Shown one piece after another: positions 31,333 through 57,668 of a stretch of DNA of 64,000 nt. The position numbers were made by a program, and so were the translations under genes. The stretch's first letter is position 1, and each line of letters opens with the position of its first letter. Location: NCBI GenBank assembly GCA_001773775.1, contig MEXR01000032.1, positions 7,266 to 71,265 on the forward strand. The letters run 5' to 3'. The stretch comes from Candidatus Amesbacteria bacterium RIFOXYB1_FULL_44_23 (GTDB taxonomy: Bacteria > Patescibacteriota > Microgenomatia > CAZETR01 > Amesbacteraceae). The notes beneath the pieces were generated by a model that saw only the letters and a list, made by a program, of their open reading frames with translations, ran no database searches and had not been told where the DNA came from.

Positions 31333-32100
31333 TTATCTGAAAGTTAGAAGAGAAGTCTCTAAAAGATCCTTGTGTTTGTCCCAGGCGGATTCGAGTGAGG
31401 TGGCGGTGACAATATACGCCCGGCTATCTTCAATGAGAATGAGTTGGATATTTTTGATGTGAAAGACACCCTGAACAAAAGTGCCGCCAATGATTCTGGC
31501 CTGGGATCCGGCTGTTGTTGTAACCGGCCGATCTTCGGTTGAGCGATAGTTTTGCAAAAGCTTGGGCAGCATCTCTTTGGTGGCGGCTACATAGGTATCC
31601 AAATCTAGACCGGGAACCGATTCTGAGGTGACGTTGATATTGGTGGTGAACTGGTTTTCGCCTTCTTTGTCCGTTTGGTTGTTAAAGAAAAAAACCAGGG
31701 TGCCAAATTGTCCGCTTTCGTCCGTTCGCCAACCTTTGGGGGCATTGATTTTGAAACCAAATTTAGAGTTGGTGTACGCAGTCTGTTCGAGAGAACTTGA
31801 AACTGATTGCTGGGTGGGAGCGGGTTTGGGATCGATAAGGAGTTCGGTTGATGGTTTTTTGGTGTTAACAAAGAAATAAATACCGATTGAAGCCAGGCTG
31901 ACTAGTAAAATAGCGATAAAGCCGGTTAAGAGGTGGTTTTTAGGACGGGGTGGGGCAATGGTGGTAGTGGCCTGAGATAGAGCTTCGTCGATGTCGTGCT
32001 GCTGCCATCCTTGTTGGATCAGGGTTTGGATGATTGATGAGGGCGATATCCCAGACTGGATTTGTTGCCTGATGTAGTCGAGCAGTTGCTGATTTGCCAT
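31333..32100 (-). CDS. Membrane-anchored hypothetical protein (256 aa)
   Basis: Start trimmed to MANQQLL... (ATG 32100..32098), because the longer track ORF (to 32235) runs through tRNA-Tyr. One TM (LLTGFIAILLVSLASIGIYFFV) and an extracytoplasmic domain. Confidence 0.5.
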   Translation of the reverse strand: MANQQLLDYIRQQIQSGISPSSIIQTLIQQGWQQHDIDEALSQATTTIAPPRPKNHLLTGFIAILLVSLASIGIYFFVNTKKPSTELLIDPKPAPTQQSVSSSLEQTAYTNSKFGFKINAPKGWRTDESGQFGTLVFFFNNQTDKEGENQFTTNINVTSESVPGLDLDTYVAATKEMLPKLLQNYRSTEDRPVTTTAGSQARIIGGTFVQGVFHIKNIQLILIEDSRAYIVTATSLESAWDKHKDLLETSLLTFR

Positions 32101-32184
32101 GGTGCCGGGAGCAGGATTCGAACCTACGTAGCCTAAGGCGCCTGATTTACAGTCAGGTGTGATTGACCGCTCCACCATCCCGGC
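32100..32184 (-). tRNA. tRNA-Tyr (anticodon GUA), long variable arm, CCA encoded
   Basis: Hand-folded: acceptor GCCGGGA/TCCCGGC, anticodon stem CCTGA/TCAGG with loop CUGUAAA, long variable arm CGCCTTAGGCTACG, T-arm with GGTTCGAATCC, 3' ACCA. Confidence 0.8.
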
Positions 32185-32274
32185 GATAATTATGATTTTA
32201 ACAAAATTCAGACGCTTCGTGTTGCTGACGGTCAAATCTTTAAGTACTTGAACTCTTGTTACTGACGAAATATA

Positions 32275-33418: not shown

Positions 33419-34057
33419 CTAAGGAAACAGAAAACCGAGAAGAAAATTGGCGATGGGGGAAACAAGGAGTGAGGCGATTGACGCCCCACCAATAATAGGC
33501 AGAATCAGGAGTAACAAAATAAGAGGCCGGTTTTGGTTTTGATAGCGAAGGGCGGATTCGTTGGACATGAGAAGGCCAATAATTTTAGAGCCATCCAGTG
33601 GGGGAACTGGGATTAAATTAAACAGGGCCAAGAAAATATTCAGGCGGACTAAAGAATAAACAACTGCACCTACTAGCATGGGCGGGCTGGTGAAATTTAA
33701 AACAACAGCCAATAAGACAGCCATGATTAAATTACTGGCCGGTCCGGCCAGGGCGATTAAGGCGGTATCCTTTTTGGGATTTTTTAAATTGAAGGGGTCA
33801 AAAGGGGCAGGTTTTCCCCAACCAAAAAAACCGGTGACTAAAATAACCAAAGTTCCCATGGGGTCTAAATGGGCCAGGGGATTTAAGGTAGTCCGGCCCA
33901 GGGAACGGGGAGTGGGGTCTCCCAGATAATCGGCCATGTAGGCGTGGGCTGCCTCATGAATACCGATGGCCATAATTAATCCACCGAAAATAAGCGCAAA
34001 AGCAGCCGGTGAGGAAACCAGGAGATCAAGCATTAGGGTTGGTAGTGATTTAGCCAA
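33419..34057 (-). CDS. Site-2 protease family zinc metalloprotease (peptidase M50-like)
   Basis: HExxH within a TM segment (IGIHEAAHAYMADYLG) plus a multi-TM topology. Confidence 0.6.
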   Translation of the reverse strand: MAKSLPTLMLDLLVSSPAAFALIFGGLIMAIGIHEAAHAYMADYLGDPTPRSLGRTTLNPLAHLDPMGTLVILVTGFFGWGKPAPFDPFNLKNPKKDTALIALAGPASNLIMAVLLAVVLNFTSPPMLVGAVVYSLVRLNIFLALFNLIPVPPLDGSKIIGLLMSNESALRYQNQNRPLILLLLILPIIGGASIASLLVSPIANFLLGFLFP

Positions 34058-37000
34058 GTAACGTAATCGGCACCGTCTACTTTACCATCATTATTGAAAT
34101 CACCGACACTGGCTCCACCGGCAACTGCTTGTTCATAGTGATTTAGCCAAATGATGTAATCGAGTCCGTCAATTTTTAAATCACTGTTGGCATCACCAGG
34201 AATCGGAGTGGGGATGGCACTGGGCGTTTGGGTGGGGGACTGAGTTGAAGTGGGAACAGAAATAGTCGGCTGGAGAGTGGGTACGGGAGTAATAAGAGAG
34301 GTGCCGGGAGCGGAGATGGTTTTGGTCAGTCCCTGGATGTAGAAAAGATCGCCGGTTTTTAGCGCGGGGACATCTACGTACGGCTCTAATTGACTGCGGG
34401 TGGCATTAAGAACGTAGCGTTTGGCGTTTAGAAGACCGGTTCTGTCCTGCCAGGGCTGAACACTAACTTCTCCGGCTGCTTCCGGGGCGTTAACCATAAA
34501 CCAGTAGGGAGCCATACGTTCATAGGCTGTCACCTGATTGGTGACTTCCGGTAGGGCATGCTGGCTCATGAAAGAGCCGACTTCGGGGACCAGGTCGAGA
34601 AAATCAACCGTGAAGGTGTAAGCGCCGCCGGTAAGGGCGCCGCTTCTGAAGTAGAGCAGATCGTAGATCAGGCCGTAGGTCGAATATTGGGACCACTGAG
34701 TGCCGATTTGCTGGGTGTGGAAAGTAATTTCTCCCACATCGGGCCGGTATGCCTGGACCGTCCACAAGTGGCCACCATTTTCAAACCCGGTTTGGGAGAG
34801 GCTTTCGGGGTTTTTACTTAAGGCCAGGCGCATCAAAAGCAGTTTAGTGAAGACCTGTTTTTGGGTATCGGTGTTGGCTGCGGCCTGATTGCCTAATTTA
34901 ATATAGCCCAGATATCCGGCCAGGTAGTTATTAAGAGTGTAGGGAGTGCTAATTCTGAAGCGGTTCCCGGTAAAGGGATTTTGGAGCTTGTTGGAAACTG
35001 CGGAAAAGAGAGTTTGGGCATTGCCGAATTCCTGAGCATATTTGGCCAGGGTATATAAACTTTTGGGTGAGTAAGACCAGCCTTGAGTATCGATAGACCA
35101 GTTTACAGAGGTGTTTTGGTTTATAACCCGATTGGCCCGGTTGAACTCATATTCAAAATCCGGAAGAGGGAGATGGTCTTCCCGGCGGGTTCCACTGCCA
35201 AAGCCGGTGTGGACGATCGAAGTGATTGGATCGTGACTGTATTCACTCTGAATGTAAGTGCGAAGGGCCAATTGCTGATCTGACGGAAGTAGCGGTAGTG
35301 CATCAAGCAGAGTAAGAATTGTTTCTGAGGGGTTGTGGTAATACTGGAACAGCCATTCTCCGGCTGAGTTGTCTAAGTTATTGAGAATGCCGTAGTAAAT
35401 GCGGTAGGGGCGTAAATGTCCGGCAGTTTCCATAGCTGAAATCTCCCGGCTTAAGCGAGAAACCAGCGGATCTGAAGCTGAAGCTGCAGTGGATGAAGCC
35501 GGGGATTGGGTCCACAAAGAGGAAACTCCGGGAATGGTCACGCTAAGTTGACCGGTGTTGGCAACGGCAGCCCATCTGCCTAAAGGAAGAGGGTAATTAA
35601 GATCCAGGTGGTTTGCCAGGGGCTGGGAGTTGAAAGTGATTTGAGTGTTATTCCAGGCAGCCAGCGCGGTAGTGGGAGGAATAAAGGCGACATCTGAAGG
35701 AGTACTGCCACCGGCAAATCCGAATTTAGTAAAAGCGGAATAACTGTAAGTTTGGGTGGCACTAGCGGTGGTAAAGGAGGAGTTTTCGGTCCAGGAGGTG
35801 GGGAAAACTCTGGCCAGCTGATCGATTTGATCGGCTTTGGATACTTCAGCTGTGTTCGGCCCTGCTACCTGCCAGCGATCTAAGATTGAGTTCAGGCGAT
35901 CGTCGGCATAATAGGTGGGGCCTTTGCCGGGTAAGGGACTGCTTAAACCATTAAAAGGAGTAAGGCTGATGTGTCCGGTTGATGAGGCAAAGTTTAAGAT
36001 GATTCCGGTTGAACGGACGCTGATTGAGGAAGGACGATTTTCCAAGGAAACGACAACCGGAAACCAGCGATGGTTGTCGGAAGTGTCCCAGACTATAAAC
36101 CAGCCGTCGGTCAGGCTGCTGCCGGCAACGTCGCCTGCGCCGATAACCCGGGTGATTCCGGATGCGGATGGATAGGCAATTCCGGCAACCGGCCCGGAGA
36201 GTTTGAGATATGAGCCGGTGTTATGTAATAGCAGGGTAGGAGTAACAGGCGAGGTGCGGATAGTCAGAGTGCCGTTGTCATAAGTAGAAGTGAGGGTAGG
36301 AGCAAATGTCGAAGCTGTGACTGTGGTTTGGGTGGGCATAAGTGAGGGGTGGGCAATAACAGAAAATGGATTAAACACATACATGGGATACGAATTCAAA
36401 GCGGCGTTTGGCCTAAGGTCTAAATACGATTCCTGTTGGTGCCATGTAGGCCAGATGTTGGTATTGGAGGTGACATTGGAAAAGATTCCGGTAATTTTTA
36501 GAGGACCTTCGGTGGCTGTTACCTGGACGCCGGTATTTTTGTTTCGAATTGAAGCAATGGCGGCGGTTTGATTCCAAAGGTATTGTTTGGCAGTTCCCTG
36601 GGAACTGAATTCAACCAGGGCGTTATTGGTGATGGAGTAGACCTTCCCGCGAAAAGGAATCATGGGCGCCTGATCACCGGATTTCCAATAGCCATATGGC
36701 CAACCCCGGCGGAACAATTCGGGAACGAGGTAACTTAAGAAGCTGTCGCCGCCCTGATCCCAATAATTGCTGGACTGGGTAGGGCTGGATGAATAACGAA
36801 AGACTCTGGCTGCCCGTTCGGCCATCAGTTTATGGTGAATAAAGTTGGGGCCGGCCGCATAGGCTGAGGGTTCGTCGATGGCCCAGTTACCTTCAGGTAA
36901 ACTGAAATATCTACTGCCGGGAACCCAACCTACCAGTCCCCCCCGGCCGATGGCACTATTGGTGATGTAGTTGTTGCGGGCGTAAAGTACGTTATCAGAT

Positions 37001-38229
37001 CCGATAAGCGGAGGATAAGCGGTGCCGGCTTTTCCGCCAACATAAGCAAATGGCATATGGTCGTCAACCTGGCCATTGCCTTCCAAATCGGCTAGATATT
37101 CATTTCCGTTGGCAGCGTAGACCATGAAATAAGTCCGGCGGTAAGCACGATTGGCAGATTCAGTGACCCGGGTGGCCGGATCGCAGGTGGTGGTGTTTTC
37201 CGAGAGAATATAAGTTTCGTTTTGGTTGTCTAAATAGGTGATGTGTTTAGCAGCGCTAAGCATGGAAAATCCGTGCATCCAGGGCTGATTTCCGGCTTCA
37301 ATGGGCACAATGGGCAGAAAGGAGGTAAAGGAGTTACGGTCGCATGTGCTGCCCTGCGAATACAAATCGGTTGATTCCAGGTGGGTTTGAGTGATGTCAA
37401 ACAAACGAACGAAGATGACATATTTGGTGCCGTTGTACGAATAAACGACCGGCCAGTAGGACTGAAACATGGGACCGGGAAATTTGTCTTTTTGCGGGGT
37501 GGATGGGTCGGCGTCTGATTTCCAAATGATGGCTCCGGTGTCGGCACTGATGGCATAAGCATGCATGTCGTTACTGGCGACATACAGAACTCCGGCATCG
37601 TAGGCAGGGGATTGGTAAATGGTTCCACCGGTTTGCTGACGCCACTTAAGCGATCCGGTATTGAGATCAAAGGCATAAACTGATCCATCTCTGTTGGCGG
37701 CATAAACGGTATTGTTTATGACAATCGGATTGCTTTGAAACCCGGCTTCAGCTTCTGGACTGCGCCATAGAAGCTGATACGAATTACCATTATCCTTGAT
37801 GGCGTGAATCCGCTTGTCCATTCCGGGAAGGTAAGCTACCCCGGCTACGACGGTAGGGGAGTTTCCTGAAGGAAGCGAAGTAGGATAATGCCATTTCAGT
37901 CCGGAGGTAGCTTGTCTTGATGGAGTGTCGAATCGGACGGCCGAAGGGTCAACGGCATACAATCCATCGGAAGCGGCCACATAAATAGTGTCACGACCCT
38001 GGGAATCTTTTGTAGCTATGGGGTGAATACGTTGGGAAACATAAGAACCGATGGGCAAAAACCAGTCGGGAGTTAATGTACCGGGAACATCTTCTGAAAC
38101 TGTACTGGTGCGGTTATAGTTGCCGGCTACGGTAAACCAGTCAGTGGAGGGAGGCAGGGTTTGGGCGCGAGCAAGCTGAGGGGAACCGAGTAAACATACT
38201 AAAAGTATTAATAGATTGACGACTGTCAT
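34033..38229 (-). CDS. Giant secreted protein (1398 aa): signal peptide, PQQ-like beta-propeller repeats, C-terminal tandem dockerin-type Ca-binding repeats
   Basis: Signal peptide MTVVNLLILLVCLLGSPQLARAQT. Repeated ...DG.VYA.D..TG...W motifs (YAVDPSA, VYAFDLNTGSLKWRQ, YAISADTGAIIWK). C-terminus GDANSDLKIDGLDYIIWLNHY ... GDFNNDGKVDGADYVTWLNHY (dockerin-like DxNxDGxxD). Confidence 0.7.
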   Translation of the reverse strand: MTVVNLLILLVCLLGSPQLARAQTLPPSTDWFTVAGNYNRTSTVSEDVPGTLTPDWFLPIGSYVSQRIHPIATKDSQGRDTIYVAASDGLYAVDPSAVRFDTPSRQATSGLKWHYPTSLPSGNSPTVVAGVAYLPGMDKRIHAIKDNGNSYQLLWRSPEAEAGFQSNPIVINNTVYAANRDGSVYAFDLNTGSLKWRQQTGGTIYQSPAYDAGVLYVASNDMHAYAISADTGAIIWKSDADPSTPQKDKFPGPMFQSYWPVVYSYNGTKYVIFVRLFDITQTHLESTDLYSQGSTCDRNSFTSFLPIVPIEAGNQPWMHGFSMLSAAKHITYLDNQNETYILSENTTTCDPATRVTESANRAYRRTYFMVYAANGNEYLADLEGNGQVDDHMPFAYVGGKAGTAYPPLIGSDNVLYARNNYITNSAIGRGGLVGWVPGSRYFSLPEGNWAIDEPSAYAAGPNFIHHKLMAERAARVFRYSSSPTQSSNYWDQGGDSFLSYLVPELFRRGWPYGYWKSGDQAPMIPFRGKVYSITNNALVEFSSQGTAKQYLWNQTAAIASIRNKNTGVQVTATEGPLKITGIFSNVTSNTNIWPTWHQQESYLDLRPNAALNSYPMYVFNPFSVIAHPSLMPTQTTVTASTFAPTLTSTYDNGTLTIRTSPVTPTLLLHNTGSYLKLSGPVAGIAYPSASGITRVIGAGDVAGSSLTDGWFIVWDTSDNHRWFPVVVSLENRPSSISVRSTGIILNFASSTGHISLTPFNGLSSPLPGKGPTYYADDRLNSILDRWQVAGPNTAEVSKADQIDQLARVFPTSWTENSSFTTASATQTYSYSAFTKFGFAGGSTPSDVAFIPPTTALAAWNNTQITFNSQPLANHLDLNYPLPLGRWAAVANTGQLSVTIPGVSSLWTQSPASSTAASASDPLVSRLSREISAMETAGHLRPYRIYYGILNNLDNSAGEWLFQYYHNPSETILTLLDALPLLPSDQQLALRTYIQSEYSHDPITSIVHTGFGSGTRREDHLPLPDFEYEFNRANRVINQNTSVNWSIDTQGWSYSPKSLYTLAKYAQEFGNAQTLFSAVSNKLQNPFTGNRFRISTPYTLNNYLAGYLGYIKLGNQAAANTDTQKQVFTKLLLMRLALSKNPESLSQTGFENGGHLWTVQAYRPDVGEITFHTQQIGTQWSQYSTYGLIYDLLYFRSGALTGGAYTFTVDFLDLVPEVGSFMSQHALPEVTNQVTAYERMAPYWFMVNAPEAAGEVSVQPWQDRTGLLNAKRYVLNATRSQLEPYVDVPALKTGDLFYIQGLTKTISAPGTSLITPVPTLQPTISVPTSTQSPTQTPSAIPTPIPGDANSDLKIDGLDYIIWLNHYEQAVAGGASVGDFNNDGKVDGADYVTWLNHYQP

Positions 38230-39598: not shown

Positions 39599-40140
39599 AT
39601 CGTCACTTCTTCGTAAACTTCACCCTTGATCAGATACAATTTTGAATGTTGAGTGAGAACGTGGTCGACAAAAAGAATTCCGTTTAAGTGATCGGTTTCG
39701 TGTTGGATGATGTGAGCTAAAAACCCGGTGAACACACCTGTTTTTTCAACTAATTGAGGCTCGGGCTGGGTCATATCGATGTCTTGGTATTTGACGGTAA
39801 CTGATTGGGATCTTTTAATGGGGGAATAGTGGTTGGGGATTGAGAGGCAGCCTTCATAGACGCCGTTTTTGGCGTTCGGCTGTTGCAGGCGCTGGCTGTA
39901 TTGAGTGATTTCGGGATTGATAAACAAAAGCGGTGGTTTTTTGAGGTCGGGTCTGGCTAAGAATAACTTAAGCGGTTCTCCTACCTGAGGAGCTGCCAGG
40001 CCTACTCCTTCAGGATCTTTGGCAGACAGCAAAGTTTGGGTCATATCCTCAATCAGATCCAGAAGTTTTTTGTCGACTCTTTCTACCGGTTTGGTTATCT
40101 GACGCAGGACAGGATGGGGAACGCAAACTATTCTGGCCAT
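39595..40140 (-). CDS. def: Peptide deformylase
   Basis: Three PDF motifs: GVGLAAPQVG, EGCLSIP, HETDHLNG. Confidence 0.9.
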   Translation of the reverse strand: MARIVCVPHPVLRQITKPVERVDKKLLDLIEDMTQTLLSAKDPEGVGLAAPQVGEPLKLFLARPDLKKPPLLFINPEITQYSQRLQQPNAKNGVYEGCLSIPNHYSPIKRSQSVTVKYQDIDMTQPEPQLVEKTGVFTGFLAHIIQHETDHLNGILFVDHVLTQHSKLYLIKGEVYEEVTI

Positions 40141-42140
40141 GAGTCGATTTTAGCAGACTGGGAGGCAATTTCTTCAAGTTGTAGTTTGGGGTCGGCAAAA
40201 TCAGGCTTAAGTTTTAATGAGTTTTCGAACTCCGCTTTGGCTTTGGGGAACTGCTCTTGGTACTTGTAGATCACGCCCAGATTGTAGGGAATCCGGGGAT
40301 CGGTGGGAGAAATTTCGGAAGCCGTAAGTAAATACTTAGCGGCAGAATCTAACATCTCCGGGTTGACTGTAGAGAGAATGATGGCGGCTTTTGAAGCTGA
40401 TTTGTAGTAGTTGGGGTGGTGGGGATTGGCAGAAATGGATTTATTGATGAGAAACTCAGTGATTTTTTTCAGTCCGGCCGAGGTGGAGGCATCCGAATCC
40501 GAAGTAAGAACTGACATATATGCGGTGGCCAGGGCCAGTTCTGAGGAGATGGCCGGCTCGCTAGAGTTGAGTTCGTAGGCCTGATTGAGTTTTTGGTAGG
40601 CAGAAACAATGTAGGAAACTTCCTGGGTCAGAGCAAAAGCGCGCAGATCGGTTTGACCGCCGGAGTATTTGGTGTCGGCTAACCAGTAACGGGCAAGCAT
40701 TAATTGAACGTATCCGGCCGCACAAAGGGCAATTAAAAACAGAAATACATTTCTGAAACTGTTTTCGGAAGGAGGCAGAGGGACTGGGGGGTCACGTTGA
40801 AAAGAGAGACTAATTGCAGGGAGTAAAAACATGAGTATTTGTACCGGAACTACTGAAAAGCCCCAAAAGTTTGTAAAGGGGATGGTTAACCAGCCAGCCA
40901 AAAGGGCGAGACTTAGATTTGAGTAGGTCGGGTCTATTTTTTTAGCATGGTCGGATTTTGAGGCCAGTGGGGCTGGGGGAGGAATCAAGACCGACCTAAT
41001 CAGTACGTACCCCATGACTACCAGCAAAACCAGGTATGACCCCAGGCCGAGAATGCCGGTGGTAGTTAAGTAGTTTAAGAATTCATTGTGGGCTTTGTTG
41101 TATAAAAGTTCCCATTCGGAAGTCGCGTTGTGTTCCGGGGGACGATTTTGATAGTAGGCCATGGTAAAGGTTTCCGGACCGGTGCCTATCAGGATAGTTT
41201 GATTTGATGACAGCCAGGCTCTGACAGCTCCGGTCCAGACTATTTTTCTGATGGCTTCGGAGTTAGTGCCGCCTGATTCCAAAACCGTGCCGGTGGGAGT
41301 TTTTACGGGTGGGGAGGTGTTAGTGGGCGGAAAAAGATAGTCGCGAAAAGGGTTTGAGATAAGAAGCGGGAAAACAATCACCGAAAGCCAGGCGATAACG
41401 GCCAGGTAATTTTTTACGGTTTTAATACCGGACTGTTTAATAGTTAAACCCCAGAAGACCAGCCACGAGAGGCCAAAAGCCAACATGCCGGACCGGCTTT
41501 TAGTGTAGATGAGACAGACAAAAAGAAGTGCAAAAAGAAACAAATGAAAATAACCACCCTTTTTTGAAGTCAGCCAGGAGAGGGGAATAAAGACCAAAGC
41601 AATTAGATATGAAGCCAGCCAATTGGGCTGGCCGAGAGTACTAAAGACCCGGTTTTGAACGTCCTGAACCCAGATATGGGCGTCGATCCCCATGTGCTGG
41701 GCTGCGCCGTAAAGCGAGACCAGGAAAGCTGCTAATAAAGCGAATTTTAGATTTGTCAGAGTTGATTTACGGTCCATGTAGGTGACAAAGCTCCAATACA
41801 AAAGGCTGTAGCTGACCAAAGAAAGAAGACCGCCGTTGAAGCGGGAATAATACCCTAAAAGAGAGATTTGCTGATTGATGGAAAAAAAGAAACTCAGTAG
41901 TTGACTGGCCAGAAACAGCAGGATGGGCCAGTCTAAAAGAGAACGGCGAAAAATAATTTTACGCTGAAAAATCATATCCGAGACCCAGGCAAAGACGATT
42001 ACGGAAGTGAGGCTGTAGGTGGCGACGATTTTGTTAAATTCAAAAAGCTCGGAGTTGTTAGGAAGAAAAATGAGGGGAACCAGGACTAACAGTAAGTGGA
42101 AACAAATGCGGATGACTTTCGCCGGCCAGGACATAGACAT
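40128..42140 (-). CDS. O-antigen ligase (Wzy_C)-like polytopic membrane protein fused to C-terminal TPR repeats
   Basis: About 12 TM helices with the ligase-loop motif YTKSRSGMLAF, then a TPR-like helical region (YAIYKYQEQFPKAKAEFENSLKLKPDFADP). Confidence 0.55.
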   Translation of the reverse strand: MSMSWPAKVIRICFHLLLVLVPLIFLPNNSELFEFNKIVATYSLTSVIVFAWVSDMIFQRKIIFRRSLLDWPILLFLASQLLSFFFSINQQISLLGYYSRFNGGLLSLVSYSLLYWSFVTYMDRKSTLTNLKFALLAAFLVSLYGAAQHMGIDAHIWVQDVQNRVFSTLGQPNWLASYLIALVFIPLSWLTSKKGGYFHLFLFALLFVCLIYTKSRSGMLAFGLSWLVFWGLTIKQSGIKTVKNYLAVIAWLSVIVFPLLISNPFRDYLFPPTNTSPPVKTPTGTVLESGGTNSEAIRKIVWTGAVRAWLSSNQTILIGTGPETFTMAYYQNRPPEHNATSEWELLYNKAHNEFLNYLTTTGILGLGSYLVLLVVMGYVLIRSVLIPPPAPLASKSDHAKKIDPTYSNLSLALLAGWLTIPFTNFWGFSVVPVQILMFLLPAISLSFQRDPPVPLPPSENSFRNVFLFLIALCAAGYVQLMLARYWLADTKYSGGQTDLRAFALTQEVSYIVSAYQKLNQAYELNSSEPAISSELALATAYMSVLTSDSDASTSAGLKKITEFLINKSISANPHHPNYYKSASKAAIILSTVNPEMLDSAAKYLLTASEISPTDPRIPYNLGVIYKYQEQFPKAKAEFENSLKLKPDFADPKLQLEEIASQSAKIDSWPE

Positions 42141-42182
42141 GATTCTACATTAAAAATTGGATTGGGGTAAAATTGTGAATGC

Positions 42183-43166
42183 ATGGAAAAAACAGTTACC
42201 CGGCGAATGATTTTATCGGTGGCAGAAACTGTGGGGATGACTTCAAAAAAGGTTTTGGAAGTATTATTTCTTTTAAGACACGGACAAGCGGTTGAAAATA
42301 ATGAATTGGTTAAACGGACAGGAGTGTCGCGAAACGTGCTTAATTTGTTAAAAAAAGAGTGGTCTGAACTGTTACTTCCGGGTACCGACAAAACCCAGAT
42401 GAAGCCAGAAGTGGTAGGGGAGTTGGATTTACTGTTCGGAGAAGGTTGGCAGCCTGATGATAGCCTGTGGAGGGTATTAGACGGAGAGCTGGGAAGAAGA
42501 ATGATGAATCTTTTAGACAAATATGCTCATTTAAGACCGGAGCCAAACAGGGCGTACGATCAGTTTTATGCCACAAAAGAAACGGTGGCCAAAAGAGCTG
42601 AGCTATTAAATTTTATGGATGACGTGGCCGGCAAAAGATTGTTGTTTTTAGGAGATGATGATTGGGGATCGGTGGGGGTTGGGTTACAAAAGCAGGCAGA
42701 AAAAGTAGTGGCTTTGGACGTAGACAAACGGATGCTGGGAAGTATCAGACAGCTGGCTGAACTGGAGAAGTTGGAGATTGAAACCGAAATGTACGATGCC
42801 AGAGACCCGCTTTTCAACAAGTGGGCCGGGAAGTTTGATGTGGTGTTTACGGATCCGCCATACACCCCACAGGGAGTGGAGTTATTCCTGTCCAGAGCCG
42901 TGTCTGGTTTGGACCTGTCCAAACAGACAGCAAGAATATACTTGTGCTTTGGTAACAGTGATCGGGCCAAAGAACGGTTTTTGCCAATTTACGAACTATT
43001 TGTGAAGTCGGGGTTGATGATTCGGTGGGTGTGGGATAAATTTAACAGATATCAGGGGGCGGAATCGATCGGGAGCGCCAGCAGCTTGTTTATATTAGAA
43101 ACTACATCTAAAACAAAACCGTTAATTTCAGGTAAAAACCATGGAGCAATCTACACCAATAATTAA
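42183..43166 (+). CDS. BpsA-like branched-chain polyamine aminopropyltransferase (DUF43 family), tentative
   Basis: GDDD motif (LLFLGDDDWGSVG) and DPPY (VVFTDPPYTP) in a Rossmann-like C-terminal domain. It sits immediately upstream of, and overlapping, the SAM decarboxylase gene. Confidence 0.5.
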   Translation: MEKTVTRRMILSVAETVGMTSKKVLEVLFLLRHGQAVENNELVKRTGVSRNVLNLLKKEWSELLLPGTDKTQMKPEVVGELDLLFGEGWQPDDSLWRVLDGELGRRMMNLLDKYAHLRPEPNRAYDQFYATKETVAKRAELLNFMDDVAGKRLLFLGDDDWGSVGVGLQKQAEKVVALDVDKRMLGSIRQLAELEKLEIETEMYDARDPLFNKWAGKFDVVFTDPPYTPQGVELFLSRAVSGLDLSKQTARIYLCFGNSDRAKERFLPIYELFVKSGLMIRWVWDKFNRYQGAESIGSASSLFILETTSKTKPLISGKNHGAIYTNN

Positions 43167-43482
43167 TCATTTTGTGGCCTTAATTCGATTAGCAGGAGTG
43201 GACGATTGGGGAAACCTAGCCAGTAATTTGGCCGAGAGCCTAATCCAAAAGCTGAACTTAACGGTGATTAAATCTGACAGTCACAACTTTTCTCCCCACG
43301 GAGAAACAAGAGTGTATTTATTGTCACAGTCGCATCTGGCAATTCATACCTGGCCGGAAGACGGGGTGATGCATGTGGACCTAGTCACCTGCAGCGAAGC
43401 CAATTTAGGTCAGTTTGAGGAGGGGGTACGACCGGACTTCCTCAGGGAGAAAATAATTGATTTGCAGGCGAGAAAAGTATAG
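43141..43482 (+). CDS. speH: S-adenosylmethionine decarboxylase proenzyme (class 1a, SpeH-type)
   Basis: Self-cleavage/pyruvoyl motif region LSQSHLAIHTWPE (ESH.S.HTWPE consensus); size 113 aa. Confidence 0.8.
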   Translation: MEQSTPIINHFVALIRLAGVDDWGNLASNLAESLIQKLNLTVIKSDSHNFSPHGETRVYLLSQSHLAIHTWPEDGVMHVDLVTCSEANLGQFEEGVRPDFLREKIIDLQARKV

Positions 43483-43517: not shown

Positions 43518-43862
43518 ATGGTAAAATGGGTGATGACAGAAAAAGGCAGCTGGCATAAATTTAGAAGGACAAGTCCCAGTTGGAGAGAAGTTGATGATAC
43601 AGAGAGTAGGGCCATTCAGGAAGCGTTAAGGATAGCGGATGAGGTCGTCAGATTGAGAGACGCAGCTATTTCGAAGGTGGATCCGCAAGTGGGGGAGATG
43701 CAAAAGTTGGTTAAGCAAAAAGCAAGGAGGGGGGAACTGGATATGGGCTTGGTGTTAAAAATTGCCGAAAGAATGGCTGACTTAGAGCAATCGGGTAAGA
43801 TACCCAGCACAGAGGCTTTAGAGAATCAGGCGAGAACAAAATTGGGTCTTTTAAAGCATTAG
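43518..43862 (+). CDS. Hypothetical helical protein
   Basis: 114-aa ORF; no motif. Confidence 0.3.
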   Translation: MVKWVMTEKGSWHKFRRTSPSWREVDDTESRAIQEALRIADEVVRLRDAAISKVDPQVGEMQKLVKQKARRGELDMGLVLKIAERMADLEQSGKIPSTEALENQARTKLGLLKH

Positions 43863-44921: not shown

Positions 44922-46268
44922 CTATCGTTTGAACAGGTTTTCAGGTCTTAGGTCTGGCAAAGGGATTTCTGTAATTTCATAGAGTGGACTATATTTCGCT
45001 CTGGTGGCCTCCCACCATTGCCAGCCTTGTCCTACCTCTAGCCACGTTGATTCAGGAGAAGCCCCGTGCCCGTTCCAATCCTTGTTTGAAAGGATCCACG
45101 CACAATTCCAAAGGAGGTCCTTTGGGTTGAAAAAACTTTGTGAATCGATTCGAATGCACCCGCCTGGTGGGCACAAATAACCTAGTGGGCGAACGGGTGC
45201 CGACAGAACAGTGAACCAAACATATTTGTTCACTATCAGTAGCACCGCTACGTGCGCCTGTTGTCTGTTCGTAGCGTCTACTCCTGCGTAGATACGGACA
45301 CTTCCATTTGAGTGGCCATCTCCTTTTTTATGCAGACAGTAGCCGGCTGAACAGACTGTAGCAGCGGTTAAGGCTGCTTTTATAACTTGCTCCGATTCAT
45401 TTCCTAACTGATCACCCCATCCAGGTAGGGGCGATCCATGCCGTGTTGACATCCAAACGGCTTCCGAAAGCGAGGCCGCAGTGAGGGGTGGTCCTAAAAG
45501 TTCAGGACCCGCGTCGCTAGATAGCAGTGTGGCGATTGAGGCTAGTACAAATACTCTGGACAACACTACTACTGCGCCGTCCGTTATGAATTCGTACCCG
45601 ACCGTTTTATACGCCAGTGATGCGATAGTCGCAACACTGGTGTCATTGGCCTCAAAAGCTATAACCTCTTCATTTTCTGGGAATGAATCACACCAGAATA
45701 TTGAAGTCTCGCTATCATCAGTCGTAGGCTGCCAAGGGCTTGAGGTCAATGTCCCATTGCATGTAAGAGCTTGCCACATTAATGTAGCAGAGTTTCCAAC
45801 AACAACCCCATCATCTCTGGCAAAAACTATGCTTCCACTTTCCCTGGACACGGCGGTACTCCAGGTATAGTAGTGGTGAATTTCCCCAGATTGGGGAGGG
45901 GCGACAAAAAAGTCATAAATTCCCCCGTTGGGGTTTATTTCCCAACCAAAATTCATCCGGAGAACTTGCTCTAGTGTTACGTCTACCCCACACAGTGTGC
46001 GGATAGAATCGGTTGCGAATTGCCAAGGGTTTGTTACTCCGGCTGGTATTTCAACCCTGCATATAGGGGTTTTGAGATCGAGAACTGGTTCTGGGTTTAC
46101 ATTTTCGATAGCTGGCTGAGAAGCCGGCTGAACTGAATCCGACGAGGCATTGATTAAGTCTGTTGGGGCTTTGTCGGGAATGGCGGTGGCAGTTGGTCCG
46201 CCACATTTTGCGGCCATTATAAAAACTGAACTGGCCAGCATCAATCGAACAAGCTTATTAAGCTTCAT
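44922..46268 (-). CDS. Secreted hypothetical protein (448 aa), Cys-containing C-terminal domain
   Basis: Signal peptide (LVRLMLASSVFIMAAKCG); no confident family. Preceded by a ~95-nt purine-rich leader. Confidence 0.5.
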   Translation of the reverse strand: MKLNKLVRLMLASSVFIMAAKCGGPTATAIPDKAPTDLINASSDSVQPASQPAIENVNPEPVLDLKTPICRVEIPAGVTNPWQFATDSIRTLCGVDVTLEQVLRMNFGWEINPNGGIYDFFVAPPQSGEIHHYYTWSTAVSRESGSIVFARDDGVVVGNSATLMWQALTCNGTLTSSPWQPTTDDSETSIFWCDSFPENEEVIAFEANDTSVATIASLAYKTVGYEFITDGAVVVLSRVFVLASIATLLSSDAGPELLGPPLTAASLSEAVWMSTRHGSPLPGWGDQLGNESEQVIKAALTAATVCSAGYCLHKKGDGHSNGSVRIYAGVDATNRQQAHVAVLLIVNKYVWFTVLSAPVRPLGYLCPPGGCIRIDSQSFFNPKDLLWNCAWILSNKDWNGHGASPESTWLEVGQGWQWWEATRAKYSPLYEITEIPLPDLRPENLFKR

Positions 46269-54675: not shown

Positions 54676-55281
54676 ATGAGTGCAAGGAAAGGTTTGTTTG
54701 TGGTGCTTTACGGTCCATCCGGAGTAGGTAAGACCAAACAACTGGATTTGTTGGAAGAAAGATTGAGACGGGAGGGAATAGTAAATAAAAGAGTGGAGTA
54801 TCCGATTTACGATTTGGCGGAAGCAGGACCAACGTTAAAAAAGATTTTATGGAGGCAAAAAGCAGCCCCAGCCGAAGAACAAATGCAGGAACTGTTCGCC
54901 CAGAACAGACGGGATTTCGAGCCCACCCTGAGAACGTGGCTTGATTCAGGAGTGACTGTTCTGGCTGAAGACTACAAAGGTACGGGAATTGTGTGGGGGT
55001 CAGTAAGAGGAGTGGATCCAAAGAGAGTGGAAGAGATCAATGATGGATTTGAAGATCCGGATGTGTCGATACTGATTGACGGACCAAGAAGACTGGATTT
55101 ACGACCCGGGGAGGGTCACATCTACCAACAGAACGAGGATGAGTGGTATCGGGCCAGAAAGATGTACCTGGGAATGGCTGACAAATACGGCTGGATAAGA
55201 GTCGGAGCGGATGCTCCGATTTTGACTGTGGCCGGTAGGATTTGGACTGTGGTTAGACTAGCACTGGCGATGAAGAAGTAA
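54676..55281 (+). CDS. P-loop nucleotide kinase, thymidylate-kinase-like (second copy)
   Basis: Walker A VVLYGPSGVGKT in the N-terminal position; NMP-kinase-like layout; low similarity to the bona fide tmk at 57002. Confidence 0.45.
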   Translation: MSARKGLFVVLYGPSGVGKTKQLDLLEERLRREGIVNKRVEYPIYDLAEAGPTLKKILWRQKAAPAEEQMQELFAQNRRDFEPTLRTWLDSGVTVLAEDYKGTGIVWGSVRGVDPKRVEEINDGFEDPDVSILIDGPRRLDLRPGEGHIYQQNEDEWYRARKMYLGMADKYGWIRVGADAPILTVAGRIWTVVRLALAMKK

Positions 55282-55712
55282 TGCGAGTCAAGATTAAGAG
55301 GTTCGATTTGAGTTTGCCCTTGCCTGAATATAAAACAGCTAAGGCTACTTCTGCAGATCTAAATGCCAGAGAACGCGTGGAAATAAAACCAGGTGAAGTA
55401 AAACTGATCGGTTTAAATATTGCCATAAAAATACCCAACGGATATGTGGGGATTTTGGCAGCTAGAAGTTCAACTCATAAGTTAGGATTAATGGCGGCAA
55501 ACGGTGTGGGAATAATCGATCCGGATTATTGCGGAGATGAAGATGAATGGAAGCTGGCGGCTTTCAATTTTACAAAGAAAAAAGTGGTGGTGGAGAAGGG
55601 GACTCGAATTGCTCAGGTGTTGTTTTTGCCTTGTAAAAGGGCGAAGTGGACGGAGGTTAAAAAAATGGGAATCAGGAACAGAGGAGGATTTGGAACAACG
55701 GGAGTTAAGTAG
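55281..55712 (+). CDS. dut: dUTP diphosphatase
   Basis: dUTPase motifs: ATSADLNA, AARSSTHKLG, GVGIIDPDYCGDE, RIAQVLF, NRGGFGTTG. Confidence 0.9.
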   Translation: MRVKIKRFDLSLPLPEYKTAKATSADLNARERVEIKPGEVKLIGLNIAIKIPNGYVGILAARSSTHKLGLMAANGVGIIDPDYCGDEDEWKLAAFNFTKKKVVVEKGTRIAQVLFLPCKRAKWTEVKKMGIRNRGGFGTTGVK

Positions 55713-55772
55713 TGTGGAAATTTGTAATAAAACCGTTGGTAATTTAAATAGAAGTGTGATAGAAATTTGTGA

Positions 55773-56997: not shown

Positions 56998-57001
56998 TAT
57001 A

Positions 57002-57667: not shown

Positions 57668-57668
57668 T

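What the first reader, a model, noticed from the sequence alone, without database searches (positions are those of the whole stretch)
42183..43482. Putative branched-chain polyamine operon: BpsA-like aminopropyltransferase (GDDD motif) overlapping speH
The 327-aa ORF has the GDDD loop (LLFLGDDDWGSVG) characteristic of N4-bis(aminopropyl)spermidine synthase (BpsA/DUF43) plus a DPPY element. Its last codons overlap a clear SpeH-type SAM decarboxylase (SHLAIHTWPE). BpsA is known mainly from hyperthermophiles, so a BpsA-like enzyme with its dcSAM supplier in a reduced bacterial genome would be unusual. Alternatively this is a DPPY methyltransferase that happens to sit next to speH.
Basis: partly seen in the sequence, partly recalled or inferred. 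Interest (0 to 1): 0.5.

Follow-up and report, generated by a model that had tools for sequence, protein, structure and literature searches.

The report
BpsA-like aminopropyltransferase coupled to SAM decarboxylase
A groundwater ultra-small (CPR) bacterium carries two overlapping genes: a SAM decarboxylase, and a relative of the heat-lover enzyme BpsA that lacks BpsA's special catalytic tail; together they most likely add aminopropyl groups to an unidentified amine, and the same untested pairing is common in ordinary-temperature bacteria.

Summary
ORF 42183-43166 (+, 327 aa) matches Pfam BpsA_C (E 4e-42). Its AlphaFold model matches only BpsA crystal structures strongly (Foldseek E ~1e-21). 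It carries GDDD and DPPY. Its last 26 nt overlap ORF 43141-43482 (+, 113 aa), a class-1b AdoMetDC/SpeH homolog with the Ser64/His69/Cys84 triad and WPE.

The window is from Candidatus Amesbacteria (CPR, aquifer). The pairing is not chance. An intact speH lies next to the gene in 30 of 43 CPR loci. The two proteins are also fused in three architectures, in CPR and in mesophilic Firmicutes (Lachnospiraceae, Lysinibacillus, Enterococcus). All 22 fused representatives keep GDDD, whereas 40 of 117 unfused ones have lost the middle Asp.

The "branched-chain polyamine" reading is not supported. The protein belongs to a separate "YT-type" clade. That clade lacks BpsA's C-terminal acidic aminopropyl-carrier cluster, the acidic insertion and Tyr316. 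It has DPPYT and a C-terminal I-Y-T motif instead.

Best reading: SpeH makes dcSAM, and the BpsA-like enzyme transfers the aminopropyl group directly to an amine. That amine is probably a scavenged di- or polyamine, but it is unknown. In 12 related CPR loci the pair heads a folE-queDEC (preQ0) and sugar-modification cluster, an unexplained lead. This is a new variant of a known kind, and of moderate interest.

The parts
42144..42173 (+). Sigma-70-like promoter match (TCTACA-18-TAAAAT) in the 42-nt divergent intergenic region, 10 nt before the bpsA-like ATG
   Evidence: Consensus scan only: 9/12 matches, and 6 sites were found in the region against 3.0 expected. This is weak evidence.
42183..43166 (+). 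bpsA-like gene, 327 aa: a 'YT-type' BpsA-family putative dcSAM-dependent aminopropyltransferase. Residues 1-~105 form a winged-helix-like N-terminal domain, and residues ~111-327 form a Rossmann catalytic domain.
   Evidence: Pfam PF01861 E 4.4e-42 over residues 111-298. PDB sequence hits to Tt-BpsA 6j27/6j28 and Tk-BpsA 5xnc. AF2 model pLDDT 90.3, pTM 0.87. Foldseek top 9 hits are all BpsA-type entries, TM 0.64-0.68.
42651..42662 (+). Codons for G157-D158-D159-D160, the GDDD loop. It replaces the GxGxG of methyltransferases and is predicted to bind the aminopropyl amine of dcSAM.
   Evidence: It aligns in register with GDDD of Tk-BpsA (157-160) and Tt-BpsA. Its role in Tk-BpsA is taken from PMC12979288. 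G157, D158 and D160 are invariant in 73 CPR homologs. The middle Asp co-varies with speH presence.
42852..42863 (+). Codons for D224-P-P-Y227 (motif IV, DPPY). D224 is the equivalent of Tk-BpsA Asp225, the acceptor-amine activating residue.
   Evidence: The HMMER alignment to 5xnc puts FTDPPYT against ITDPPET. The motif is invariant in the CPR family. DPPY[TSA] is present in 134 of the 150 closest cluster representatives.
43149..43163 (+). Codons for the C-terminal I323-Y324-T325-N-N motif. It occupies the position of the acidic (R-D-E-E-T) aminopropyl-carrier tail of canonical BpsA.
   Evidence: Alignment A4. I323, Y324 and T325 are invariant in 73 CPR homologs. The motif is kept in loci without an overlapping speH (L008, L076) and inside fusion proteins, so it is selected in the BpsA-like frame. 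The tail is modelled with pLDDT 92 for residues 311-320.
43130..43133 (+). AGGT Shine-Dalgarno-like element for speH, inside the end of the bpsA-like gene
   Evidence: Read directly from the sequence. It lies 7 nt before the ATG at 43141.
43141..43166 (+). 26-nt overlap between the bpsA-like and speH genes, implying translational coupling
   Evidence: Overlaps of 26-44 nt recur in the related CPR loci.
43141..43482 (+). speH, 113 aa: class-1b pyruvoyl S-adenosylmethionine decarboxylase proenzyme homolog. The predicted self-cleavage site is Q63|S64, with S64 (codon 43330-43332) becoming the pyruvoyl group. H69, C84 and W71-P72-E73 are also present.
   Evidence: Pfam PF02675 E 2.3e-17. PDB hits to Aquifex 2iii and T. 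maritima 1tlu, aligned so that S64/H69/C84 correspond to Tm S63/H68/C83. The SpeDC diagnostic residues are absent.
43518..43862 (+). Co-directional 114-aa ORF 36 nt downstream. It is probably co-transcribed but is not part of the conserved module.
   Evidence: No Pfam or NCBIfam hit. Homologs were found only in contigs of the same species.

Best explanation
This is a translationally coupled two-gene module for aminopropyl transfer.

Step 1 (inferred from homology): the SpeH proenzyme cleaves itself at Gln63-Ser64, forms an N-terminal pyruvoyl group, and decarboxylates S-adenosylmethionine to dcSAM.

Step 2 (inferred from fold, motifs, co-variation and gene fusions): the BpsA-family enzyme binds dcSAM. 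Its GDDD loop (D159/D160) holds the aminopropyl ammonium, D179/D181 hold the ribose, and D205 holds the adenine.

Step 3 (inferred): the aminopropyl group is transferred to an amine nitrogen, releasing methylthioadenosine. That nitrogen is positioned by D224-P-P-Y227, Y290, D260/E264 and the C-terminal Y324.

The acidic C-terminal carrier tail of true BpsA is replaced by I-Y-T-N-N. Transfer is therefore probably direct (SpeE-like, SN2) rather than the ping-pong relay of BpsA.

The acceptor is not identified. A common di- or polyamine is the most likely candidate (putrescine, cadaverine, agmatine or spermidine, probably scavenged in this reduced genome). That would make this a SpeE-independent polyamine-elongating enzyme of mesophiles. 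A branched product is possible but not indicated.
For: - Family and fold: PF01861 at 144.5 bits. The profile of the CPR family hits Tk-BpsA 5xnc at E 7.6e-31. The AF2 model has pLDDT 90.3. The Foldseek top 9 hits are all BpsA-type entries at E ~1e-21, and the next hits are at ~1e-10.
- dcSAM-side residues are conserved: GDDD, D126/Q127, D179/D181 and D205. The acceptor-side equivalents of D225 (D224) and Y290 are also conserved.
- SpeH: the catalytic triad, FxPxG and WPE are conserved in the window and in 27 of 27 CPR SpeH sequences. The SpeDC pattern QLIETS..GHF is absent.
- Linkage: of 43 CPR loci, 26 have intact speH overlapping downstream, 1 has it upstream, 2 are fused and 1 has it adjacent on the opposite strand.
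- Rosetta-stone fusions occur in three architectures: BpsA-like::SpeH in CPR (L049, L051; Pfam), SpeH::BpsA-like (P0168), and BpsA-like-Zn-ribbon::canonical SpeH in Lachnospiraceae, Lysinibacillus, Enterococcus and others.
- 22 of the 150 closest cluster representatives are fused. All 22 have GDDD, while 40 of 117 unfused have GDxD with a non-Asp middle residue (Fisher p 5e-4).
- Among CPR loci, 0 of 4 middle-Asp variants keep an intact speH against 30 of 39 with GDDD (p 0.006).
- The fused genes sit alone in Lysinibacillus and Brevibacillus. This fits an acceptor that is a common cell metabolite.
Against: - No enzymology exists for any member of this clade in the literature I could search.
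- The acceptor is unknown. The acidic pocket elements of BpsA (insertion after Y290, Y316, C-terminal DEE) are missing, so polyamine binding is not demonstrated.
- No polyamine precursor, transport or speE gene is visible in the 64-kb window or in the +/-8 kb of the related loci. The whole genome could not be inspected.
- SpeH scores 60.3 bits, below the NCBIfam equivalog cut-off of 75.65. It has Gln instead of Glu before the cleavage Ser and lacks the second Gly of the usual G-x-S-G.
- In 12 CPR loci the pair sits at the head of a preQ0/sugar-modification cluster, which hints at another acceptor.
- The Fisher tests ignore phylogenetic relatedness.
Confidence: 0.6

Rival explanations
1. It is a true BpsA ortholog. 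It takes spermidine and adds aminopropyl groups at N4 to make N4-aminopropylspermidine or N4-bis(aminopropyl)spermidine, with dcSAM supplied by SpeH.
For: Same Pfam family and same two-domain fold. GDDD and the equivalents of D225 and Y290 are conserved. NCBI names relatives 'bis-aminopropyl spermidine synthase family protein'.
Against: The features tied to the BpsA mechanism and to its branched products are absent: the C-terminal acidic carrier cluster (Tk E339/D342/D343/E344/E345, Tt DEE), Tyr316, and the acidic insertion. The protein falls in a clade distinct from canonical BpsA. No speE or other spermidine source was seen nearby. The organism lives in a cold aquifer, whereas branched polyamines are tied to thermophily.
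Confidence: 0.12
2. The enzyme aminopropylates a non-polyamine acceptor. Candidates are a 7-deazaguanine (preQ0/preQ1-derived) base or nucleoside, an amino sugar of a surface glycan, or a protein or nucleic-acid amine. SpeH again supplies dcSAM.
For: In 12 of about 43 CPR loci the pair is followed, on the same strand, by some or all of folE, queD, queE and queC. Further downstream come a carbamoyltransferase, GT2/GT1, a DegT aminotransferase and an APH-type kinase. The DPPY motif is the one used by N-methyltransferases to bind planar exocyclic amines. After BpsA, the structurally nearest enzymes include the rRNA m6A methyltransferase METTL5. The polyamine-binding acidic elements are lost. The N-terminal winged-helix domain, and a Zn ribbon in Firmicutes, could bind a macromolecule.
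Against: The window's own locus has no preQ0 genes within 64 kb. A 24-100 nt gap separates speH from folE, so these may be separate transcription units. The linkage is limited to Microgenomates and could be inherited synteny. The Firmicutes fusions are solitary genes. Canonical BpsA also has DPP and the N-terminal domain. No TGT or DpdA-type insertion enzyme lies in those clusters.
Confidence: 0.15
3. The SpeH-like protein is a neofunctionalised pyruvoyl arginine or ornithine decarboxylase (SpeDA/SpeDC type). It would supply the amine acceptor (agmatine or putrescine) rather than dcSAM, and the transferase would get dcSAM from elsewhere.
For: Such neofunctionalised SpeD homologs are common in CPR bacteria and occur where SpeE is missing (PMC10407285). 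The score is below the NCBIfam AdoMetDC equivalog cut-off. The cleavage site is Q-S and the second Gly is missing.
Against: It lacks all four SpeDC diagnostic residues, and it keeps both conserved prolines and the W-P-E motif of bona fide AdoMetDC. E-S and Q-S forms alternate among close CPR orthologs. In Firmicutes the same transferase clade is fused to textbook AdoMetDC domains ([20 protein letters not shown]). GDDD integrity co-varies with SpeH presence. No second SpeD homolog was seen in any locus.
Confidence: 0.08
4. It is a SAM-dependent DPPY N-methyltransferase (RsmD, HemK or N6-adenine type) that merely neighbours speH.
For: The DPPY motif is present. There are weak Pfam hits to Cons_hypoth95 (28.3 bits, cut-off 24), N6-adenineMlase and MTS. 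JGI labels some homologs 'predicted methyltransferase'.
Against: The acidic GDDD loop replaces the glycine-rich SAM loop. NCBIfam RsmD scores 21.8 bits against a cut-off of 117.5. BpsA structures outscore every methyltransferase by about 11 orders of magnitude. Recurrent fusion and overlap with AdoMetDC have no rationale for a methyltransferase.
Confidence: 0.03

Closest known systems
BpsA, N4-bis(aminopropyl)spermidine synthase (EC 2.5.1.128) of Thermococcus kodakarensis (PDB 5xnc/5xnf/5xnh) and Thermus thermophilus (6j27)
   Same: Same Pfam family (PF01861). Same two-domain architecture (N-terminal helical/winged-helix domain plus Rossmann domain; TM 0.64-0.68). The GDDD loop is in register. 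The D-P-P motif is shared, with the Asp225 equivalent present. Tyr290 is conserved, as is the RP.P.R..DQ..T.ET segment.
   Different: About 21-22% identity. DPPYT instead of DPPET. No 15-25 residue acidic insertion after Tyr290. Tyr316 (W-Y-K/N-S) is replaced by I-G-S-x-S. The C-terminal acidic carrier motif (..R-D-E-E-T..) is replaced by I-Y-T-N-N. The gene is tightly coupled or fused to AdoMetDC. The hosts are mesophilic or psychrotolerant. It forms a separate clade in the NJ tree.
Class 1b S-adenosylmethionine decarboxylase SpeH/SpeD (T. maritima 1tlu, Aquifex 2iii, B. subtilis SpeD)
   Same: Small proenzyme of about 113-130 aa. Ser/His/Cys triad (S64/H69/C84). F-x-P-x-G and H-T-W-P-E motifs.
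   Different: Gln rather than Glu before the cleavage serine (Glu and Gln alternate among CPR orthologs). The second Gly of G-x-S-G is not conserved. The N-terminal strand is divergent (INHFVAL against GRHLVAE). The score is below the NCBIfam equivalog cut-off.
SpeDA/SpeDC, AdoMetDC-derived pyruvoyl arginine and ornithine decarboxylases (Li et al. 2023, PMC10407285)
   Same: SpeD homologs found in CPR genomes without a neighbouring speE. This is the same 'anomalous SpeD' situation that prompted their discovery.
   Different: The window protein lacks the SpeDC signature (Gln/Thr/Phe/Tyr, as in QLIETS..GHF..Y) and keeps the prolines and WPE of genuine AdoMetDC. Its constant partner is an aminopropyltransferase-fold enzyme that needs dcSAM.
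SpeE spermidine synthase with SpeD (the classical dcSAM-dependent aminopropyl transfer pair), including SpeD-SpeE fusion proteins described in some proteobacteria (the fusions are recalled from my own knowledge, not checked here)
   Same: The proposed working logic is the same: a decarboxylase makes dcSAM for a Rossmann-fold aminopropyltransferase that uses an acidic loop and a (T/S)DP motif. Gene fusion of the two steps also occurs.
   Different: There is no PF01564/PF17284 (SpeE) similarity. The enzyme belongs to a different family (PF01861), with a different N-terminal domain and different gatekeeping elements.

Membership tests
BpsA / PF01861 (branched-chain polyamine synthase family) | Significant match to the PF01861 catalytic-domain model | tested here: met
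   144.5 bits against a cut-off of 27, E 4.4e-42, residues 111-298.
BpsA / PF01861 (branched-chain polyamine synthase family) | Two-domain BpsA fold (N-terminal domain plus Rossmann domain) | tested here: met
   AF2 model pLDDT 90.3. Foldseek top 9 hits are 2qm3, 5xnc, 6j27, 6j28, 5xnf and 5xnh at E ~1e-21 to 1e-19, TM 0.64-0.68.
BpsA / PF01861 (branched-chain polyamine synthase family) | GDDD motif (Tk G157-D160), indispensable for catalysis and for positioning dcSAM | tested here: met
   LLFLGDDDWGS aligns in register with Tk and Tt GDDD. The motif's role is taken from PMC12979288.
BpsA / PF01861 (branched-chain polyamine synthase family) | Acceptor-activating residues Asp225, Glu259, Tyr290 and Tyr316 of Tk-BpsA | tested here: inconclusive
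   D224 (= D225) and Y290 are conserved. The E259 region aligns ambiguously (N258/R261, with invariant D260 adjacent). Y316 is not conserved (I-G-S-x-S).
BpsA / PF01861 (branched-chain polyamine synthase family) | Flexible C-terminal acidic cluster that carries the aminopropyl group (ping-pong mechanism) and sets product branching | tested here: not met
   The C-terminus is ...KNHGAIYTNN with no acidic residue in the last 20 positions. Canonical relatives end ...DILRDEETLTL.
BpsA / PF01861 (branched-chain polyamine synthase family) | Catalysis of N4-aminopropylation of spermidine | not testable with these tools
   This needs an enzyme assay or LC-MS.
Class 1b AdoMetDC (SpeH/SpeD, PF02675) | Match to PF02675 and to solved AdoMetDC proenzymes | tested here: met
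   63.7 bits against a cut-off of 25. 2iii at E 5e-14 and 1tlu at E 1e-10.
Class 1b AdoMetDC (SpeH/SpeD, PF02675) | NCBIfam equivalog TIGR03330 trusted cut-off | tested here: not met
   60.3 bits against a cut-off of 75.65.
Class 1b AdoMetDC (SpeH/SpeD, PF02675) | Self-processing and catalytic residues Ser63, His68 and Cys83 (T. maritima numbering) | tested here: met
   S64, H69 and C84 align to them. They are conserved in 27 of 27 CPR orthologs.
Class 1b AdoMetDC (SpeH/SpeD, PF02675) | The proline conserved in bona fide AdoMetDC but not in SpeDA, and absence of the four SpeDC diagnostic residues | tested here: met
   Both central prolines (FSPHG, HTWPE) are present. No QLIETS/GHF/Y pattern is present. 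Which proline the paper marks could not be read from the figure.
Class 1b AdoMetDC (SpeH/SpeD, PF02675) | SAM decarboxylase activity | not testable with these tools
   This needs an assay or E. coli delta-speD complementation.
DPPY-type SAM-dependent N-methyltransferases (RsmD / HemK / N6-adenine MTases) | Motif IV (D/N)PP(Y/F) | tested here: met
   D224-P-P-Y227. However, Tk-BpsA also has DPP at this site.
DPPY-type SAM-dependent N-methyltransferases (RsmD / HemK / N6-adenine MTases) | Glycine-rich motif I that accommodates the SAM carboxylate, and family-model scores above the cut-offs | tested here: not met
   The motif I position holds GDDD. NCBIfam RsmD scores 21.8 against 117.5, HemK2 22.1 against 87 and PrmC 13.1 against 199. 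Only PF03602 marginally passes (28.3 against 24).
SpeE-type aminopropyltransferases (PF01564) | Match to spermidine/spermine synthase models | tested here: not met
   No PF01564 or PF17284 hit at E <= 1.

The most novel reading that the evidence does not exclude
The YT-type BpsA-like/SpeH module may not be a polyamine synthase at all. It could be a dcSAM-dependent aminopropyltransferase for a non-polyamine amine. In Microgenomates that amine could be a 7-deazaguanine (preQ1-like) base or nucleoside, or an amino sugar made by the folE-queDEC-carbamoyltransferase-glycosyltransferase cluster that the pair heads in 12 loci. This would be a new class of aminopropylated nucleobase or glycan and a new use of dcSAM.
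Probability: 0.12. Interest if true: 0.8.

Novelty: new variant of a known kind. Interest (0 to 1): 0.5.

Why it matters
Branched-chain polyamine synthase (BpsA) is presented in the literature as a thermophile-specific enzyme with a peculiar ping-pong mechanism.

This locus belongs to a sizeable sister clade found in mesophiles: CPR bacteria, gut Lachnospiraceae, Lysinibacillus, Brevibacillus, Enterococcus, Nocardiopsis and Myxococcota. The clade keeps the dcSAM site and is hard-wired to an AdoMetDC by overlap or fusion. It has replaced the parts that define BpsA's mechanism and product.

If the clade acts on polyamines, it is an unrecognised, SpeE-independent route for aminopropyl transfer. 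That would change how polyamine capacity is read from genomes. In genome-based surveys the partner SpeD would look 'anomalous' because no speE accompanies it, and NCBI labels the fusions only as 'adenosylmethionine decarboxylase'. It would also show that some ultra-small CPR bacteria invest SAM in polyamine tailoring.

Cultivable carriers exist, so the question can be tested directly.

Tried and rejected
- Full-length Tk/Tt BpsA: I tried to retrieve these with a profile of PDB-alignment fragments. The search returned mostly fragments. I used P0121, P0128, P0129 and P0148 as canonical stand-ins, so Tk residues 317-351 were compared only through the review text and these relatives.
- Third ORF (43518-43862): it has no family hits and no homologs outside the species, so I dropped it from the module.
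- Nocardiopsis and Myxococcota contexts (glutamate synthase, Lgt, GMC oxidoreductase, acyltransferase): uninformative.
- Lysinibacillus and Brevibacillus contexts: solitary genes. No Rfam riboswitch lies upstream.
- Two copies in the complete Woesebacteria Ch104a genome (L021, L038): I first read these as paralogous modules, one standalone and one attached to the cluster. The proteins are identical, so this may be a recent duplication or an assembly repeat, and I did not use it as evidence.
- Phage link: there is only one hit, an unverified 4.3-kb gut contig. It was useful only for revealing the Firmicutes fusion.
- Literature: six searches found no paper on this subfamily, on DUF43/PF01861 in mesophiles, or on a link between dcSAM and 7-deazaguanines.
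I replaced it with my own HMM/phmmer scan.
- Whole-genome absence of speE, speA/B/C, polyamine transporters and MTA salvage could not be tested.
Full report
**1. What is in the sequence**

The window holds a 327-aa ORF at 42183-43166 (+) and a 113-aa ORF at 43141-43482 (+). They overlap by 26 nt. The same bases read G-A-I-Y-T-N-N-stop in the first frame and M-E-Q-S-T-P-I-I-N in the second. An AGGT lies 7 nt before the second ATG.

The pair is transcribed divergently from a Wzy_C/TPR membrane protein gene 42 nt upstream. It is followed by a species-specific 114-aa ORF and then a convergent Ser/Thr kinase gene.

The identical protein is deposited as a hypothetical protein of Candidatus Amesbacteria bacterium RIFOXYB1_FULL_44_23, a CPR/Microgenomates genome. 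The same contig recurs in several metagenomes.

**2. Identity of the larger gene**

- Pfam gives PF01861 BpsA_C at 144.5 bits (cut-off 27, E 4.4e-42). Methyltransferase models score only 13-28 bits.
- NCBIfam methyltransferase equivalogs all fail their cut-offs by a wide margin.
- Sequence searches of the PDB find only the BpsA enzymes of Thermus thermophilus and Thermococcus kodakarensis and the homologous Pyrococcus protein 2qm3.
- An AlphaFold model built on 73 homologs is confident (pLDDT 90.3, pTM 0.87).
- Its nine best Foldseek matches in the PDB are all BpsA-type entries (E ~1e-21 to 1e-19, TM 0.64-0.68 over both domains). The next matches (O- and C-methyltransferases, METTL5, PH1948) start at E ~1e-10.

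That test comes out the other way.

**3. It is not a canonical BpsA**

The 2026 review of branched-chain polyamines (PMC12979288) lists what makes BpsA work:
- the GDDD loop (D159/D160 position the aminopropyl group of dcSAM);
- Asp225, Glu259, Tyr290 and Tyr316 around the acceptor;
- a flexible C-terminal acidic cluster (Tk E339/D342/D343/E344/E345; a DEE motif in Tt). This cluster covalently carries the aminopropyl group in a ping-pong mechanism and sets product specificity.

Aligned to Tk-BpsA and to canonical full-length relatives, the window protein compares as follows:
- It keeps GDDD in register.
- It keeps D224 (= D225, in TDPPYT against TDPPET) and Y290.
- The Glu259 region aligns ambiguously.
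- The 15-25-residue acidic insertion after Tyr290 is absent.
- Tyr316 (W-Y-K/N-S) is replaced by I-G-S-x-S.
- The acidic tail (...DILRDEETLTL) is replaced by ...GAIYTNN.

The I-Y-T motif is invariant in 73 CPR homologs. It persists where no speH overlaps it and inside fusion proteins, so it is a selected feature of this protein. A neighbour-joining tree separates canonical BpsA from a clade that I call YT-type, defined by DPPY[T/A] plus a C-terminal (I/L/V)Y(T/S). That clade contains the CPR, Myxococcota, Nocardiopsis, other actinobacterial and Firmicutes proteins.

**4. Identity of the smaller gene**

- It matches PF02675 at 63.7 bits, and it matches the Aquifex and Thermotoga AdoMetDC proenzymes.
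- Ser64, His69 and Cys84 align with the T. maritima processing and catalytic residues S63/H68/C83.
- It falls below the NCBIfam equivalog cut-off (60.3 against 75.65).
- It has Gln, not Glu, before the cleavage serine.

Li et al. 2023 (PMC10407285) showed that many SpeD homologs in genomes lacking SpeE, including CPR genomes, are really arginine or ornithine decarboxylases. I therefore checked their diagnostics. The SpeDC signature, visible in their supplementary alignment as ...QLIETS..SGHF..Y.D.FSC, is absent. Both central prolines and the H-T-W-P-E motif of bona fide enzymes are present in the window protein and in all 27 CPR orthologs aligned. Glu and Gln alternate before the serine among close orthologs. 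The sequence therefore looks like a divergent but genuine AdoMetDC. This is an inference, not a measurement.

**5. The two genes belong together**

A scan of one genome per species found 80 loci with this subfamily. Among 43 CPR loci:

| speH state | loci |
|---|---|
| intact, overlapping downstream | 26 |
| intact, upstream | 1 |
| fused with the BpsA-like gene in one ORF (L049, L051; Pfam BpsA_C + AdoMet_dc) | 2 |
| adjacent, opposite strand | 1 |
| fragments only | 4 |
| none | 9 |

Further fusions turned up elsewhere:
- A reverse fusion (SpeH::BpsA_C, P0168) appeared in the protein database.
- A 555-aa fusion of a YT-type enzyme, a zinc ribbon and a textbook AdoMetDC domain ([20 protein letters not shown]) was found on a gut contig.
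- That third architecture proved widespread in mesophilic Firmicutes: Lachnospiraceae (one 90% cluster has 1273 members), Lysinibacillus fusiformis, Heyndrickxia, Ornithinibacillus, Paenibacillus and Enterococcus. NCBI labels these only as 'adenosylmethionine decarboxylase'. Unfused forms occur in Brevibacillus, Tissierella and Clostridium.

An exhaustive HMMER search of 1.84 billion cluster representatives gives 1352 relatives at E <= 1e-3 and 98 at E <= 1e-30. Of the best 150, 22 carry a SpeH domain and 134 have DPPY[T/S/A].

**6. An internal consistency check**

In Tk-BpsA the middle Asp of GDDD (D159) contacts the aminopropyl group of dcSAM. All 22 fused representatives have GDDD. In contrast, 40 of 117 unfused ones have G-D-x-D with His, Asn, Ser, Tyr, Arg or Gly in the middle (Fisher p 5e-4).

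Among CPR loci, none of the four middle-Asp variants (GDGD, GDND, GDSD, GDYD) keeps an intact neighbouring speH, against 30 of 39 with GDDD (p 0.006). These tests ignore shared ancestry and are only indicative. The direction is what a dcSAM-binding role for GDDD predicts. The window protein has GDDD and an intact coupled speH.

**7. Mechanism proposed**

SpeH self-processes and makes dcSAM. The YT-type enzyme binds it through GDDD and the conserved Rossmann acidic residues. It then transfers the aminopropyl group to an amine held by D224-P-P-Y227, Y290, D260/E264 and the C-terminal Tyr324, releasing MTA. Without a carboxylate carrier tail, a direct SpeE-like displacement is more likely than BpsA's ping-pong relay.

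All of these steps are inferred from homology, motif conservation, co-variation and fusion. None is shown biochemically.

**8. The acceptor is the open question**

Arguments for a common di- or polyamine:
- Family ancestry points that way.
- The acceptor-side Asp and Tyr are conserved.
- The fused genes in Lysinibacillus and Brevibacillus are solitary, as expected if the substrate is an ordinary metabolite.

Arguments for caution:
- The acidic elements that line BpsA's polyamine pocket are gone.
- No speE, decarboxylase, agmatinase or polyamine transporter is seen in the window or recurrently near the gene.
- In 12 Microgenomates loci the pair is followed on the same strand by some or all of folE, queD, queE and queC (the preQ0 pathway). 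Variable sugar- or aminoglycoside-type genes follow: a carbamoyltransferase, GT2/GT1, a DegT aminotransferase, an APH-family kinase and a Peptidase_MA-like protein.

The window's own locus lacks these genes, although tgt and queA lie just beyond the window end. I treat this linkage as an unexplained lead. It underlies the 'novel case'.

**9. Comparison with what is known, and novelty**

The protein is a member of the PF01861 family, and NCBI's pipeline already names close relatives at family level. It fails the membership test for BpsA proper on the carrier tail, a defining feature. Calling it a branched-chain polyamine synthase is therefore not justified.

I found no publication on this clade, on its coupling to AdoMetDC, or on BpsA-family enzymes in mesophiles or CPR bacteria. 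The library does not cover most subscription journals.

I rate it a new variant of a known kind, with moderate interest (0.5). It is not rare or categorically new. It is a coherent, widespread and experimentally tractable module that contradicts the 'thermophile-specific' picture of the family and is easy to mis-annotate.

**10. Limits**

- The whole Amesbacteria genome could not be inspected.
- Full-length Tk and Tt sequences were not retrievable, so the tail comparison rests on the review and on canonical relatives.
- Model coordinates could not be examined residue by residue.
- The statistics are not phylogenetically corrected.

Noticed in passing
L007, L016, L017, L018, L020, L024, L026, L029, L030, L034, L035, L038 (e.g. 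L017:9365-15519): In 12 related CPR loci the bpsA-like/speH pair is followed by preQ0-pathway genes, on the same strand in 11 of them. Five or six loci carry three or four of folE, queD, queE and queC. The others have only folE or folE fragments, and in L020 folE is on the opposite strand. Downstream come a Peptidase_MA-like gene, a carbamoyltransferase, GT2/GT1, a DegT aminotransferase and an APH-type kinase. No TGT/DpdA-type gene is in the cluster. In some loci a serine recombinase or a helicase-REase gene lies just upstream. The product of this cluster is unknown.
   Followed up: partly
L090:1606-3273; proteins P0177, P0262, P0247, P0280; L049:7881-9233; P0168: Natural fusions of the BpsA-like enzyme with AdoMetDC occur in three architectures. 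The Firmicutes form (about 500-565 aa, with a CxxC...CxxC zinc ribbon between the domains) is abundant in gut Lachnospiraceae and present in cultivable Lysinibacillus, Heyndrickxia and Enterococcus. NCBI annotates it only as 'adenosylmethionine decarboxylase'.
   Followed up: partly
L050-L086 (e.g. L059:7746-9599): About 35 Nocardiopsis species and Glycomyces carry a long form (about 600 aa) of the YT-type protein. It has GDHD instead of GDDD and a C-terminal extension of about 230 aa with no Pfam match. No speH lies nearby, and the neighbours are housekeeping genes (gltBD, lgt). This may be a diverged function.
   Followed up: partly
window 1-64000: GC skew is very strong and uniform. (G-C)/(G+C) is 0.25 over the whole window (G 18253, C 10955) and 0.16-0.36 in nearly every 2-kb bin. 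It is independent of gene orientation: minus-strand genes such as 34033-38229 and 40128-42140 still show +0.21 to +0.23 on the plus strand. The closely related L007 shares it, while other CPR loci show much weaker skew.
   Followed up: partly
window 44922-46268 (-): A 448-aa ORF with a signal-peptide-like N-terminus and no Pfam hit has plus-strand GC skew of about 0. It is the only clear exception to the window-wide skew, so it may be recently acquired or inverted DNA.
   Followed up: no
window 6162-6234 (-): An AdoCbl-II (cobalamin) riboswitch aptamer scores 39.5 bits against a gathering score of 36.5. It lies at the 5' end of a 343-353-aa minus-strand gene (5107-6168) with no Pfam family, so this may be an uncharacterised B12-regulated gene in a CPR genome.
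   Followed up: no
window 17154-18566 (+), overlapping proS at 18563-19993: A 470-aa protein combines a TM1506/DUF1893 domain with both ArgZ-like C-terminal domains (268 bits) but lacks the arginine dihydrolase domain. It overlaps the prolyl-tRNA synthetase gene by 4 nt. It may be an ornithine/proline-related enzyme of unknown function.
   Followed up: no
window 54676-59758: A compact dTMP/one-carbon block contains two thymidylate kinase paralogs (54676-55281 and 57002-57667) flanking dCTP deaminase/dUTPase and ThyA, followed by SHMT and FolD. The duplicated tmk is unusual for a reduced genome.
   Followed up: no
window 34033-38229 (-): A 1398-aa secreted PQQ-like beta-propeller protein has a Pro/Thr/Ser-rich linker and a dockerin-like C-terminal repeat (DANSDLKIDGLD...DFNNDGKVDGAD).
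   Followed up: no
window 31333-32235 (-) and tRNA-Tyr 32100-32184 (-): The mechanically called 300-aa ORF (also called as a gene in public annotation) overlaps the tRNA-Tyr gene on the same strand. Its true start is probably further downstream.
   Followed up: no
L021 and L038 (both CP055308.1, Woesebacteria Ch104a complete genome): The 0.8-Mb genome holds two copies of the bpsA-like/speH pair with identical protein sequences (speH differs only in the last few residues). One copy is standalone. The other lies at the record end, heading the folE-queDE-queC-carbamoyltransferase cluster. This could be a recent duplication or an assembly repeat.
   Followed up: partly
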